Virus record (IMG/VR): IMGVR_UViG_2541047722_000005
Reading direction: 5' to 3' (one strand)
DNA from: a virus
Lineage: Duplodnaviria > Heunggongvirae > Uroviricota > Caudoviricetes
Length of the DNA stretch: 15,805 nt
The position numbers were made by a program, and so were the translations under genes. Below are positions 4,436 to 7,519 of the stretch, piece after piece (the stretch's first letter is position 1; each line of letters starts with the position of its first letter). The notes beneath the pieces were generated by a model. The model was given only the letters and a program-made list of their open reading frames with translations, searched no databases and was not told where the DNA came from.

Positions 4436-6024
4436 AACGAACGCCTGTCCTGATTGATGTGAACGGCGTTCCGCTTCGTGAGAGTCTCAGCTACAACGGG
4501 GGCGGTGCAGGATTTGGCGGGCAAATGGCTGAGTGGTTGCCACCGGCGCAGAGTGCCGATGCGGCCCTGCTGCCCGCGTTGCGTCTGGGGAATGCCCGGG
4601 CAGATGATCTGGTGCGCAATAACGGAATAGCGGCTAATGCGGTGGCTCTGCATAAGGATCACATTGTCGGGCATATGTTTCTGATCAGCTACCGTCCGAA
4701 CTGGCGCTGGCTGGGGATGCGGGAGACCGCAGCAAAAAGCTTTGTCGATGAGGTGGAGGCGGCCTGGTCGGAATACGCCGAAGGGATGTTTGGCGAGATC
4801 GACGTGGAAGGAAAACGCACGTTCACGGAATTTATCCGTGAAGGTGTGGGCGTTCATGCGTTTAACGGCGAAATCTTTGTGCAGCCGGTCTGGGATACGG
4901 AAACCACGCAGTTATTCCGTACGCGTTTTAAAGCCGTGAGTCCGAAACGGGTGGACACGCCTGGACACGGTATGGGGAACCGTTTTCTGCGGGCCGGTGT
5001 GGAGGTCGATCGATATGGCCGTGCCGTCGCGTACCATATCTGTGAGGATGATTTTCCGTTCTCTGGTAGTGGACGATGGGAACGGATCCCGCGTGAACTT
5101 CCCACCGGGCGTCCGGCCATGCTGCATATTTTCGAGCCGGTGGAGGACGGGCAGACCCGTGGGGCTAATCAGTTTTACAGCGTCATGGAACGGCTGAAGA
5201 TGCTCGATTCCCTGCAGGCAACACAGCTTCAGTCGGCCATAGTGAAGGCGATGTATGCAGCGACGATTGAAAGTGAACTTGATACCGAAAAGGCCTTTGA
5301 ATATATCGCCGGCGCGCCACAGGAGCAGAAGGATAATCCGCTTATTAATATTCTGGAGAAGTTTTCCAGCTGGTATGACACGAATAACGTGACACTGGGC
5401 GGTGTCAAAATTCCGCACCTTTTCCCTGGTGATGATCTGAAACTACAGACTGCGCAGGATTCAGACAATGGATTTTCTGCGCTTGAACAGGCGCTGCTGC
5501 GGTATATCGCCGCCGGTCTTGGCGTTTCCTACGAACAGTTGTCCCGTGATTACTCGAAGGTCAGTTACTCAAGTGCCCGCGCCTCCGCCAATGAGTCGTG
5601 GCGCTATTTTATGGGGCGGCGAAAATTTATTGCGGCCCGGCTGGCCACGCAGATGTTTTCCTGCTGGCTGGAAGAGGCACTTCTTCGGGGGATTATTCGT
5701 CCGCCACGGGCACGTTTTGATTTTTATCAGGCGCGATCAGCCTGGTCACGGGCAGAGTGGATTGGTGCCGGAAGAATGGCCATTGACGGGCTCAAGGAAG
5801 TCCAGGAATCAGTGATGCGCATTGAGGCCGGACTGAGCACGTATGAGAAAGAGCTGGCGCTGATGGGCGAGGATTATCAGGACATTTTCCGCCAGCAGGT
5901 CAGGGAATCTGCTGAGCGGCAAAAAGCCGGACTCTCACGTCCGGTGTGGATAGCGCAGGCGTATCAGCAGCAGATAGCGGAGAGTCGCAGGCCGGAAGAG
6001 GAGACAACACCACGTGAGACGTAA
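4432..6024 (+). CDS. B: Portal protein (gpB homologue, 530 aa from ATG 4432)
   Basis: Extensive similarity to lambda gpB as recalled (NARADDLVRNNG.AANA, FEPVEDGQTRGAN.FYSVME, LQSAIVKAMYAATIESELDT, LLRYIAAGLGVSYEQLSR, GRMAIDGLKEVQE). ATG 4432 overlaps the W stop (ATGA). Confidence 0.9.
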   Translation: MKRTPVLIDVNGVPLRESLSYNGGGAGFGGQMAEWLPPAQSADAALLPALRLGNARADDLVRNNGIAANAVALHKDHIVGHMFLISYRPNWRWLGMRETAAKSFVDEVEAAWSEYAEGMFGEIDVEGKRTFTEFIREGVGVHAFNGEIFVQPVWDTETTQLFRTRFKAVSPKRVDTPGHGMGNRFLRAGVEVDRYGRAVAYHICEDDFPFSGSGRWERIPRELPTGRPAMLHIFEPVEDGQTRGANQFYSVMERLKMLDSLQATQLQSAIVKAMYAATIESELDTEKAFEYIAGAPQEQKDNPLINILEKFSSWYDTNNVTLGGVKIPHLFPGDDLKLQTAQDSDNGFSALEQALLRYIAAGLGVSYEQLSRDYSKVSYSSARASANESWRYFMGRRKFIAARLATQMFSCWLEEALLRGIIRPPRARFDFYQARSAWSRAEWIGAGRMAIDGLKEVQESVMRIEAGLSTYEKELALMGEDYQDIFRQQVRESAERQKAGLSRPVWIAQAYQQQIAESRRPEEETTPRET

Positions 6025-7519
6025 TCTTTCACACATTATTGCCGCAGCATTCAATGAACCGCTGCTTCTGGAGCCCGCCTATGCGCGGGTTTTCTTTTGC
6101 GCGCTCGGGCGCGAGATGGGGGCAGCAAGTCTTTCGGTACCACAACAGCAGGTACAGTTTGATGCTCCCGGAATGCTGGCTGAAACGGACGAGTACATGG
6201 CCGGAGGTAAACGACCGGCCCGTGTTTACCGGGTGGTGAACGGTATTGCTGTACTGCCGGTGACCGGCACGCTGGTGCACCGGCTGGGTGGTATGCGGCC
6301 ATTTTCCGGAATGACAGGCTATGACGGCATTGTCGCCTGTCTTCAGCAGGCAATGGCGGATAGCCAGGTGCGGGGCGTACTGCTGGACATTGACAGTCCG
6401 GGCGGGCAGGCCGCCGGCGCGTTTGACTGCGCTGACATGATTTACCGCCTCCGTCAGCAGAAGCCGGTCTGGGCACTGTGCAATGACACGGCCTGTTCTG
6501 CAGCCATGCTGCTGGCGTCGGCCTGCTCCCGACGGCTGGTTACCCAGACATCCCGTATCGGCTCCATTGGCGTGATGATGAGCCATGTCAGCTATGCCGG
6601 TCATCTGGCGCAGGCCGGTGTGGATATCACGCTGATTTACTCAGGGGCGCACAAGGTGGATGGCAATCAGTTTGAAGCGTTGCCGGCAGAGGTTCGCCAG
6701 GACATGCAGCAGCGGATTGATGCGGCGCGCCGGATGTTTGCCGAAAAAGTGGCGATGTATACCGGTCTGTCTGTTGATGCCGTCACGGGAACAGAGGCTG
6801 CCGTTTTTGAAGGTCAGTCCGGCATTGAGGCCGGGCTGGCGGATGAATTAATCAATGCGTCGGATGCCATCAGTGTGATGGCCACGGCGCTGAACAGTAA
6901 TGTCAGAGGAGGCACTATGCCGCAATTAACTGCAACGGAAGCCGCCGCGCAGGAGAACCAGCGAGTGATGGGGATCCTGACATGCCAGGAAGCGAAAGGA
7001 CGTGAACAGCTTGCCACGATGCTGGCAGGACAACAGGGCATGAGCGTTGAACAGGCCCGGGCGATTCTGGCCGCGGCGGCACCGCAGCAGCCGGTGGCAT
7101 CCACGCAGAGTGAAGCCGATCGCATTATGGTGTGTGAAGAAGCGAACGGTCGTGAACAACTGGCGGCAACGCTGGCGGCGATGCCGGAGATGACGGTGGA
7201 AAAAGCCCGCCCGATCCTGGCTGCTTCACCGCAGGCGGATGCCGGACCATCACTCCGTGATCAGATCATGGCACTGGATGAGGCAAAAGGGGCTGAGGCG
7301 CAGGCTGAACAGCTGGCTGCCTGCCCGGGAATGACAGTGGAGAGCGCCCGGGCTGTGCTGGCTGCGGGATCAGGTAAGGCAGAACCGGTCTCTGCATCCA
7401 CAACCGCCATGTTTGAACATTTCATGGCGAACCATTCACCGGCAGCGGTACAGGGTGGCGTGGCACAGACGTCAGCAGACGGTGATGCGGACGTGAAAAT
7501 GCTCATGGCCATGCCATGA
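6014..7519 (+). CDS. C: Head maturation protease / minor capsid protein C homologue (501 aa), with C-terminal scaffold (Nu3-like) portion
   Basis: GTG start 6014 (VRRNLSHIIAAAFNEPLLLEPAYARVFFCAL matches lambda gpC N-terminus ...NLPHIASMAFNEPLMLEPAYARVFFCAL as recalled). Central region has S49/ClpP-like features (DIDSPGG, GAFDCAD, PVWAL.ND..CSA..LLASA.SRRLVTQT.R.GSIGVMM.H). About 60 aa longer than lambda C because of a tandem repeat expansion in the C-terminal part. Confidence 0.88.
   Translation: MRRNLSHIIAAAFNEPLLLEPAYARVFFCALGREMGAASLSVPQQQVQFDAPGMLAETDEYMAGGKRPARVYRVVNGIAVLPVTGTLVHRLGGMRPFSGMTGYDGIVACLQQAMADSQVRGVLLDIDSPGGQAAGAFDCADMIYRLRQQKPVWALCNDTACSAAMLLASACSRRLVTQTSRIGSIGVMMSHVSYAGHLAQAGVDITLIYSGAHKVDGNQFEALPAEVRQDMQQRIDAARRMFAEKVAMYTGLSVDAVTGTEAAVFEGQSGIEAGLADELINASDAISVMATALNSNVRGGTMPQLTATEAAAQENQRVMGILTCQEAKGREQLATMLAGQQGMSVEQARAILAAAAPQQPVASTQSEADRIMVCEEANGREQLAATLAAMPEMTVEKARPILAASPQADAGPSLRDQIMALDEAKGAEAQAEQLAACPGMTVESARAVLAAGSGKAEPVSASTTAMFEHFMANHSPAAVQGGVAQTSADGDADVKMLMAMP
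6704..7519 (+). CDS. nu3: Possible nested in-frame scaffold protein (Nu3-like), translated from an internal start of C
   Basis: By analogy with lambda, where Nu3 is the C-terminal in-frame portion of C. In-frame ATG 6704 (MQQRIDAARRMFAEKV...) with AGAGG 11 nt upstream; aligns with the lambda Nu3 start region (MDATRQMFAQKV) as recalled. ATG 6734 is an alternative. The start is inferred, not demonstrated. Confidence 0.35.
   Translation: MQQRIDAARRMFAEKVAMYTGLSVDAVTGTEAAVFEGQSGIEAGLADELINASDAISVMATALNSNVRGGTMPQLTATEAAAQENQRVMGILTCQEAKGREQLATMLAGQQGMSVEQARAILAAAAPQQPVASTQSEADRIMVCEEANGREQLAATLAAMPEMTVEKARPILAASPQADAGPSLRDQIMALDEAKGAEAQAEQLAACPGMTVESARAVLAAGSGKAEPVSASTTAMFEHFMANHSPAAVQGGVAQTSADGDADVKMLMAMP

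What the first reader, a model, noticed from the sequence alone, without database searches (positions are those of the whole stretch)
6975..7371. Tandem triplication of a ~47-50 aa motif in the scaffold (Nu3-like) part of gene C
Three in-frame copies of a motif I(L/M)xC(Q/E)EAxG(R)EQ...GM(S/T)VExAR.ILAA... occur at about 6975-7092, 7124-7233 and 7264-7371, recognisable at both protein and DNA level. As I recall it, lambda C/Nu3 has a single copy of this motif (ILNCEEAHGREEQARVLAETPGMTVKTARRILAAAPQ). The expansion lengthens the scaffold region by roughly 60 aa. It could alter scaffold valency or interaction with the capsid protein or protease, and is a hotspot for recombination or slippage.
Basis: partly seen in the sequence, partly recalled or inferred. 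Interest (0 to 1): 0.55.

Follow-up and report, generated by a model that had tools for sequence, protein, structure and literature searches.

The report
Phage 21 scaffold "Tri box" triplication
The three repeats are real, but they are the long-annotated "Tri boxes" of phage 21's head protease/scaffold gene: three copies of a small helical module that lambda and most relatives carry once, with a function that is still untested.

Summary
The window is 100% identical to phage 21.

The ORF at 6014-7519 is gp5, an S49 prohead protease and the lambda C analogue. The repeats lie in its C-terminal scaffold part, which is also the nested gene 6 (6917-7519, the Nu3 analogue).

- **Significance:** the three boxes match each other far above composition-preserving shuffles (z = 12-15).
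- **Age:** DNA identity is only 53-66%, and third codon positions are near saturation. This is an old triplication kept by selection on the protein, not a DNA repeat.
- **Copy number:** lambda has one box. Most relatives also have one (61 of 66 distinct proteins from a species-wide genome scan). I also found natural forms with 2, 3, 4 and 5 boxes.
- **Structure:** AlphaFold models each box as a separate three-helix unit joined by poorly conserved linkers.

My best inference, which is untested, is that each box is a protein-binding unit of the internal scaffold and that copy number sets its valency. The binding partner is unknown.

Recombination in the array is documented but rare.

The parts
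6014..7519 (+). Gene 5: prohead protease/scaffold protein gp5 (lambda C analogue). 501 aa, GTG start that overlaps the end of the portal gene.
   Evidence: ORF list and translation. 100% identical to the gene 5 CDS of M81255.1 and to CPT_21_05 of OL657228.1. 55% identical to lambda C.
6449..6892 (+). S49 serine peptidase domain (aa 146-293 by Pfam). It aligns to SppA over aa 77-290.
   Evidence: PF01343, E = 3.7e-35. SppA structures 3rst/4kwb, E = 4e-16. S162 and K214 are invariant in 95 homologues.
6906..6912 (+). Shine-Dalgarno sequence GAGGAGG, 4 nt upstream of the internal ATG of gene 6.
   Evidence: Sequence. Annotated as an RBS in both phage 21 records. An SD plus an in-frame ATG at the equivalent place occurs in 60 of 66 family members, against 11 of 558 control internal ATGs.
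6917..7519 (+). Nested in-frame gene 6: scaffolding protein gp6 (lambda Nu3 analogue). 200 aa, equal to gp5 aa 302-501.
   Evidence: Annotated in M81255.1 and OL657228.1. The M302 column is conserved in at least 90% of 95 homologues. PHROG 8399 'head scaffolding protein' matches it in 3 stretches.
6959..7078 (+). Box 1 (Tri1; GenBank feature = window 6984-7087): QRVMGILTCQEAKGREQLATMLAGQQGMSVEQARAILAAA.
   Evidence: HMM hit of 62.8 bits. AlphaFold gives three helices with pLDDT about 90. 78% mean identity across 41 three-box homologues. It is the closest of the three boxes to lambda's single box.
7124..7231 (+). Box 2 (Tri2; GenBank 'Tri box' = window 7124-7234): IMVCEEANGREQLAATLAAMPEMTVEKARPILAASP.
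   Evidence: HMM hit of 50.2 bits. AlphaFold gives three helices with pLDDT about 77. 67% mean identity across homologues. Positionally orthologous to box 2 of Salmonella prophage proteins, at 75-78%.
7262..7366 (+). Box 3 (Tri3; GenBank feature = window 7265-7378): QIMALDEAKGAEAQAEQLAACPGMTVESARAVLAA.
   Evidence: HMM hit of 43.5 bits. AlphaFold gives three helices with pLDDT about 68. 60% mean identity across homologues.
7397..7516 (+). Single-copy C-terminal tail of gp5/gp6. It holds a short conserved helix (TTAMFEHFMANHS; family motif F/L..(F/A)M) and the terminal ..MLMAMP.
   Evidence: AlphaFold helices at gp6 aa 161-173 and 192-196. The family consensus shows L..AM after the box and a tail of about 50 aa (median 53 aa) in single-box proteins.

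Best explanation
The repeats are three copies of a roughly 40-residue module, one after another, that is conserved across the lambda C/Nu3 family. They sit in the scaffold portion of phage 21 gp5, and therefore also in the nested 200-aa scaffolding protein gp6.

**Shown**
- The repeats are real and are the annotated Tri boxes.
- Lambda and most relatives carry the module once. The phage-21-type head module carries it 3-5 times.
- All three copies are kept by selection on the amino-acid sequence.
- The DNA copies are old and diverged.

**Predicted**
- Each box folds on its own into a small three-helix unit.
- The units are strung on variable, flexible linkers, like beads on a string.

**Inferred, not shown**
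- The box is the repeated protein-binding unit of the internal scaffold.
- It most probably contacts the equivalent, repeated sites on the inner face of the capsid-protein lattice. Binding to boxes of other scaffold chains is the main alternative.
- Under this reading a 3-box scaffold is trivalent in cis, whereas lambda has one box per chain.
- The same boxes in full-length gp5 would carry the protease into the procapsid. The protease would then destroy the scaffold by cutting it.
For: - **Identity:** the window is 100% identical to phage 21, and the Tri1/Tri/Tri3 boxes are annotated there.
- **Repeat significance:** z = 12-15 against shuffles.
- **Nested gene:** there is a strong SD before the internal ATG. 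An SD-ATG at this place occurs in 60 of 66 relatives against 2% of control ATGs.
- **Selection on the protein:** third-position identity is 32-42% while amino-acid identity is 48-60%. Boxes are 78/67/60% conserved across 41 three-box homologues; linkers are 40/38/2%. Boxes 1, 2 and 3 are positionally orthologous between phage 21 and Salmonella prophages, at 80/78/60%.
- **Four-box proteins:** the boxes are 76-95% identical in protein but only 71-80% in DNA, with 38-62% at third positions. All copies are therefore held to the same sequence, as expected if they bind equivalent partners.
- **Copy-number series:** 1, 2, 3, 4 and 5 boxes occur on otherwise similar head modules. The capsid proteins are all 341-342 aa.
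- **Background:** lambda Nu3 interacts with the capsid protein E, with C and with itself in two-hybrid tests (PMC3224144). Helical C-terminal modules bind coat protein in the P22, phi29, SPP1, 80alpha and herpesvirus scaffolds (PMC11565965).
Against: - No experiment or structure shows what the box binds. The capsid-protein contact could instead lie in the single-copy C-terminal tail, as it does in herpesvirus and P22 scaffolds, where the extreme C-terminus binds coat.
- The boxes are internal, with about 50 aa following them.
- AlphaFold confidence for boxes 2 and 3 is only moderate. No significant structural match supports a specific function.
- Lambda assembles the same-sized capsid with one box, so the extra boxes are not intrinsically required.
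- A natural E. coli prophage allele has lost half of Tri2. Whether that prophage is viable is unknown.
- The title of Medina et al. 2011, seen only in the reference lists, calls lambda gpNu3 intrinsically disordered. That sits uneasily with a stably folded box.
Confidence: 0.5

Rival explanations
1. The box is a self-association module (box-box contacts between scaffold chains) and not a capsid-protein binder. On this reading, multi-box scaffolds form a cross-linked internal core, and the single-copy C-terminal tail makes the contact with the shell.
For: Lambda Nu3 self-interacts in two-hybrid tests, and the authors of PMC3224144 report independent (personal-communication) confirmation of dimers. 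A conserved tail with its own short helix follows the boxes in all family members. All boxes of 4-box proteins are held to nearly the same sequence, which also fits homotypic binding.
Against: AlphaFold does not pack the boxes against one another within the chain (pTM 0.32). That is weak evidence. Nothing here tests contacts between chains.
Confidence: 0.25
2. The extra boxes are functionally redundant products of unequal crossing-over. One box does the job, as in lambda, and boxes 2 and 3 persist as tolerated spacer.
For: Lambda and 61 of 66 distinct relatives have one box and a same-sized capsid protein. Copy number varies from 1 to 5. A natural allele has lost 19 aa of Tri2. Conservation falls from box 1 to box 2 to box 3.
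Against: Boxes 2 and 3 stay far more conserved than the linkers (67% and 60% against 2-40%), although silent sites are saturated. They are positionally orthologous across Escherichia and Salmonella. In the spread sample of 30 of 2038 matching E. coli records, nearly all near-identical alleles keep the same 1506-nt length, and 1866 of 5426 complete genomes hold a copy covering at least 80% of the gene. In multi-box proteins the linker before box 1 is shortened from 28-64 aa to 14-19 aa, which suggests compensation and not passive growth.
Confidence: 0.15
3. The repeats act at the DNA or RNA level, for example as protein-binding sites or recombination sites, and the protein similarity is secondary. 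Alternatively, they are a chance effect of Ala/Gln/Glu-rich composition.
For: GenBank annotates them as DNA 'repeat_region' features. OL657228.1 carries pattern-matched CII sites on the minus strand at window 6922-6935 and 7156-7169, the second inside Tri2.
Against: Nucleotide identity is concentrated at codon positions 1 and 2 (64-78%), with position 3 near random at 32-42%. TRF finds nothing, and the longest shared word is 9 nt. Composition-preserving shuffles never reach the observed protein scores. The same box is found by HMM in about 100 diverse homologues.
Confidence: 0.02

Closest known systems
Phage 21 genes 5/6 'Tri1, Tri2, Tri3 boxes' (GenBank M81255.1). I recall the source as Smith & Feiss 1993, Gene 126:1-7, but could not read that paper here.
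   Same: It is the same sequence: 100% identity over the gene. The annotated repeat features map to window 6984-7087, 7124-7234 and 7265-7378.
   Different: Nothing differs. The record says 'function unknown; putative'. What this analysis adds is the family context (1-5 copies), the evidence for selection and the fold prediction.
Lambda gpC / gpNu3 (S49 prohead protease with a nested scaffolding protein).
   Same: The head-operon position, the S49 domain (61% identity), the nested in-frame scaffold gene, the box motif and a C-terminal tail are all shared.
   Different: Lambda has one box (aa 360-399) after a linker of about 50 aa. Phage 21 has three boxes after a 14-aa linker, and its protein is 62 aa longer.
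C-terminal helix-turn-helix coat-binding domain of the P22 scaffolding protein (and the helical coat-binding ends of the phi29, SPP1, 80alpha and herpesvirus scaffolds).
   Same: These are small helical modules in an otherwise flexible scaffold, and they mediate assembly contacts (PMC11565965).
   Different: Those modules are single and lie at the extreme C-terminus. The Tri boxes are predicted three-helix units, internal and repeated. No significant sequence or fold match was found.
Tandem three-helix-bundle binding modules such as staphylococcal protein A domains and the GA albumin-binding module.
Other nested or fused protease-scaffold genes: herpesvirus UL26/UL26.5, P2 gpO and Mu gpI/gpZ (from general knowledge and PMC8508860).
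   Same: The protease shares its C-terminal part with the scaffold, so it is co-assembled into the procapsid.
   Different: The protease families differ, and as far as I know none has a repeated module of this type.

Membership tests
Lambda C/Nu3-type S49 prohead protease-scaffold | S49 (SppA-like) serine peptidase domain with a conserved Ser/Lys | tested here: met
   PF01343, E = 3.7e-35, 121.6 bits against a cut-off of 24.9. SppA structures match at E = 4e-16. S162 and K214 are invariant in 95 homologues.
Lambda C/Nu3-type S49 prohead protease-scaffold | Located between the portal gene and the decoration and major capsid genes of a lambda-like head operon | tested here: met
   The gene order is portal, gene 5/6, shp, gene 7 in the window and in M81255.1 and OL657228.1. 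The order is the same in the related loci L084 and L085.
Lambda C/Nu3-type S49 prohead protease-scaffold | Nested in-frame scaffolding gene that shares the C-terminus of the protease | tested here: met
   GAGGAGG lies 4 nt before the in-frame ATG at 6917, and an SD-ATG is conserved in 60 of 66 relatives. Actual translation of gp6 cannot be tested here.
Lambda C/Nu3-type S49 prohead protease-scaffold | Protease activity and degradation of the scaffold during maturation | not testable with these tools
   This needs biochemistry. I infer it from homology to lambda gpC.
Phage 21 Tri boxes | Identity with the annotated repeat_region features of M81255.1 | tested here: met
100% identity over 1506 nt.
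P22-type scaffolding coat-binding helix-turn-helix | A single helix-loop-helix at the extreme C-terminus | tested here: not met
   The boxes are internal (gp5 aa 316-451 of 501), are repeated and are predicted as three helices.
P22-type scaffolding coat-binding helix-turn-helix | Detectable sequence or fold similarity to a solved scaffold domain | tested here: not met
P22-type scaffolding coat-binding helix-turn-helix | Direct binding to the major capsid protein | not testable with these tools
   No complex prediction or binding assay was available.
Helix-hairpin-helix motif (PF00633) | Score above the Pfam gathering threshold | tested here: not met
   13.0 bits against a cut-off of 24, E = 0.097, and only at box 3.

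The most novel reading that the evidence does not exclude
The box is the valency unit of lambda-family scaffolds. Each copy would bind one capsid-protein subunit, or one box of another scaffold chain. Nature would then have produced an allelic series of 1, 2, 3, 4 and 5 boxes on otherwise equivalent T=7 head modules. That series could be used directly to test how scaffold valency and avidity control procapsid nucleation, fidelity and scaffold stoichiometry.

A side hypothesis is that the box arose by duplication of the helix-loop-helix at the end of the S49 protease domain.
Probability: 0.3. Interest if true: 0.5.

Novelty: already known. Interest (0 to 1): 0.25.

Why it matters
As an observation it adds nothing to the public record. 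The triplication has been annotated in the phage 21 GenBank entry for decades, with function unknown.

The useful part is the context:
- The box is the most conserved element of the scaffold region across the lambda C/Nu3 family.
- It has no Pfam or NCBIfam model and no solved structure.
- It occurs naturally in 1 to 5 copies.
- About a third of complete E. coli genomes carry the 3-box allele in a prophage.

Lambda head assembly is a classic system, and how Nu3 contacts the shell is still poorly defined. This natural copy-number series offers a cheap genetic handle on that question. It will not overturn anything.

Tried and rejected
- **Homologue search with gp6 alone:** it returned mostly short fragments.
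- **Search with the 49-column box profile:** it returned only 12 short fragments, because the word index favours proteins of the query's length. It was useless for asking whether the box occurs outside S49 proteins, so that question stays open.
- **The search for related loci with the 95-sequence alignment:** it failed because no stretch was conserved enough. I repeated it with 10 sequences.
- **Single-sequence AlphaFold:** it merged helices 1 and 2 of each box into one long helix. The model built with an alignment replaces it.
- **Literature:** the original phage 21 paper and the lambda gpC/gpNu3 papers (Medina 2010, 2011) are not held. Statements about them rest on the GenBank features, on titles in reference lists, or on my memory, and are marked as such.
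- **HhH reading:** rejected because the score is below the Pfam threshold.
- **DNA-level element:** rejected on the codon-position pattern.
- **Species count:** at least 7 of the 67 'single-box species' loci are lambda DNA contamination (the identical match statistics suggest 2 more). I therefore report counts of distinct proteins.

Full report
**1. What the window is**

The ORF at 6014-7519 (+) encodes a 501-aa protein. Megablast shows the gene is 100% identical to phage 21, in both M81255.1 and OL657228.1. M81255.1 annotates it as gene 5. It also annotates a nested in-frame gene 6, which maps to window 6917-7519 (200 aa) and has an RBS at 6906-6910.

The record also carries three repeat_region features called 'Tri1 box', 'Tri box' and 'Tri3 box', each noted as 'function unknown; putative'. 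In window coordinates these are 6984-7087, 7124-7234 and 7265-7378. OL657228.1 calls the two products 'capsid protease/scaffolding protein' and 'scaffolding protein'. From memory, the source is Smith & Feiss 1993 (Gene 126:1-7). I could not retrieve that paper.

**2. Check of the observation**

The three copies are real.
- Pairwise local BLOSUM62 scores are 87-101, against 25-27 +/- 5 for 2000 shuffles. That is z = 12-15, and no shuffle reached the observed score.
- With an HMM trained on the family, the boxes are gp5 aa 316-355, 371-406 and 417-451.
- At the DNA level the repeat is weak. TRF finds nothing. Codon-aligned identity is 53-66%, with 64-78% at codon positions 1 and 2 but only 32-42% at position 3. 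The longest exact direct repeat in the array is 9 nt.

This is therefore an old duplication kept at the protein level. It is not a DNA repeat.

**3. Context in the protein**

- Residues 146-293 are an S49 peptidase domain (Pfam E = 3.7e-35). The domain aligns to SppA structures through residue 290.
- S162 and K214 are invariant in 95 homologues.
- No Pfam or NCBIfam model and no PDB sequence covers the scaffold part. PHROGs 8399 ('head scaffolding protein') and 8940 ('capsid assembly protein') each match gp6 in three stretches.
- The internal start is well supported. GAGGAGG lies 4 nt before the ATG at 6917. The Met column is conserved in at least 90% of 95 homologues. In the genome scan, 60 of 66 distinct relatives have an SD-preceded in-frame ATG within 75 aa upstream of the first box, against 11 of 558 control internal ATGs.

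**4. Comparison with lambda and the family**

Lambda C (439 aa) aligns at 55% identity and has one box, at aa 360-399.

| Sample | Box counts |
|---|---|
| 150 representatives of 50%-identity clusters, ranked by similarity to whole gp5 | 96 have one true box; only P0094 besides gp5 has three |
| 66 distinct proteins from a scan of one genome per bacterial species | 61 one box; 1 two boxes; 4 three boxes |
| 115 best-scoring proteins newly returned by a profile search of the 5.8-billion-protein set | 31 one box (about 427-489 aa when intact; longer entries are ORF fusions); 41 three (490-516 aa); 40 four (535-551 aa); 3 five (568-657 aa) |

In the species scan, the two-box protein is from Buttiauxella ferragutiae. 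The three-box proteins are from Escherichia/Shigella, Trabulsiella and Providencia. In the profile search, the three-box forms come from Salmonella, Edwardsiella, Cronobacter, Trabulsiella and E. coli. The four-box forms come from E. coli, Citrobacter, Salmonella, E. albertii and E. marmotae.

The 3-box phage 21 allele is very common. 1866 of 5426 complete E. coli genomes hold a copy that covers at least 80% of the gene, and most copies are 95-100% identical.

The head modules of 3-box and 4-box phages are closer to each other (capsid protein 82% identical) than to lambda (59-62%). All the capsid proteins are 341-342 aa. Copy number therefore does not track capsid-protein size.

**5. Evidence for selection on each box**

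- Across 41 three-box homologues, the boxes are 78%, 67% and 60% identical to phage 21. The linkers are 40%, 38% and 2%.
- Boxes are positionally orthologous between phage 21 and Salmonella prophage proteins (80/78/60% on the diagonal, lower off it). The triplication therefore predates that divergence.
- In a 4-box protein (P0280, locus L085) the boxes are 76-95% identical as protein. They are only 71-80% identical as DNA, with 38-62% at third positions. The similarity is therefore held by selection and does not come from recent duplication.
- In multi-box proteins the segment between the internal start and box 1 is 14-19 aa. In single-box proteins it is 28-64 aa.

**6. Dynamics of the array**

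Change is rare but does occur.
- An E. coli prophage (L084, 551-aa product) carries an in-register 150-nt tandem duplication. Its junction lies in a 5-nt overlap between Tri3 and Tri2 and gives a chimeric fourth box.
- P0258 (657 aa, 99% identical) has Tri1-Tri2 duplicated.
- A sewage E. coli isolate (L086, 482-aa product) has a 57-nt in-frame deletion that removes the second half of Tri2.
- Against this, nearly all near-identical E. coli alleles in the spread sample have exactly 1506 nt.

'Hotspot' is therefore too strong a word for phage 21's diverged array.

**7. Structure**

AlphaFold2 with a 64-sequence alignment gives three short helices for each box.

| Box | Helices (gp6 numbering) | Approximate pLDDT |
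|---|---|---|
| 1 | H6-22, H30-37, H44-53 | 90 |
| 2 | H66-72, H80-88, H94-103 | 77 |
| 3 | H113-118, H127-135, H141-152 | 68 |

The linkers have low confidence and pTM is 0.32, so there is no fixed arrangement between the boxes. A further helix at aa 161-173 and a short C-terminal helix follow.

**8. Mechanism**

*Shown:* this is a selected, modular triplication inside the nested scaffold protein.

*Inferred:* each box is a protein-binding unit of the scaffold, and copy number sets valency. My preferred partner is the capsid-protein lattice, for three reasons:
- Lambda Nu3 interacts with E in two-hybrid tests (PMC3224144).
- Helical modules are the coat-binding elements of other scaffolds (PMC11565965).
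- All copies are held to the same sequence, as expected for binding equivalent sites.

The main rival is homotypic box-box association, with the single-copy tail contacting the shell. A third possibility is that the extra boxes are largely redundant. I cannot separate these with the tools available. The DNA-element and chance readings are excluded.

**9. Verdict**

The added value is the family-wide picture: a single copy is the norm, a natural 1-5 series exists, each box is under selection, and each is predicted as a three-helix unit. The analysis also yields a clear set of experiments. Interest is low to moderate.

Noticed in passing
L003 (lambda NC_001416.1) 833-1438 vs about 1043; window 6906-6919: RefSeq annotates lambda nu3 from M239 of C (201 aa), where no good SD precedes the ATG. 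The family-conserved SD-ATG corresponds to lambda M309, which is preceded by AGGAGG and would give a 131-aa scaffold. It aligns with phage 21's gene 6 start. PHROGs holds both a 131-position 'head scaffolding protein' family and a 201-position 'capsid assembly protein' family.
   Followed up: partly
window about 6728-6793 (gp5 aa 239-260, RRMFAEKVAMYTGLSVDAVTGT): The helix-loop-helix near the end of the S49 domain weakly resembles the second half of the box (R..lA..LA..tgMsve.A). hhalign gives probability 65% and P = 6e-5 over 22 columns, and three homologues give weak HMM hits there. The box may have arisen by duplication of this protease-domain element, or the likeness may be convergent.
   Followed up: partly
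L016-L019, L021-L023 (and probably L014, L020): Genome assemblies labelled Chromatium, Kitasatospora, Shewanella, Pseudomonas, Oceanobacillus and Leeuwenhoekiella contain the lambda C gene at 0 mismatches in 1320 nt. Several sit on low-coverage contigs, some about 48 kb long. This looks like lambda control-DNA contamination, and it inflates per-species counts.
   Followed up: yes
L086 (E. coli JEB8, NZ_OZ001712.1), equivalent to window about 7160-7216: A natural allele (482 aa, WP_001253887.1) has a 57-nt in-frame deletion that removes LAATLAAMPEMTVEKARPI, the second half of Tri2. The deletion lies between two LAA-coding stretches. Whether that prophage is viable is unknown.
   Followed up: partly
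L084 (E. coli GCA_900536945.1), equivalent to window 7181-7335: A 551-aa allele has an in-register 150-nt tandem duplication that creates a chimeric Tri3/Tri2 fourth box. The BLAST segments overlap by 5 nt at the junction. P0258 (657 aa) has a separate 156-aa duplication covering Tri1-Tri2.
   Followed up: yes
window 6922-6935 and 7156-7169, minus strand: OL657228.1 annotates two 'transcription factor CII' binding sites (pattern ttgynnnnnnttgy) on the antisense strand inside gene 6, one of them within Tri2. They are pattern matches with no supporting evidence and are probably chance.
   Followed up: no
P0093 (382 aa), P0335/P0338/P0357, P0352/P0362, P0099: The protein databases hold a 98%-identical form that lacks about aa 270-388. 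They also hold several apparent fusions of the protease-scaffold ORF with portal, capsid or tape-measure domains. These are likely frameshifts, assembly errors or gene-calling artefacts.
   Followed up: no
window 6014-6024: Gene 5 starts at a GTG that overlaps the last 11 nt of the portal gene (portal ORF ends at 6024). This suggests translational coupling, as in lambda B/C.
   Followed up: no
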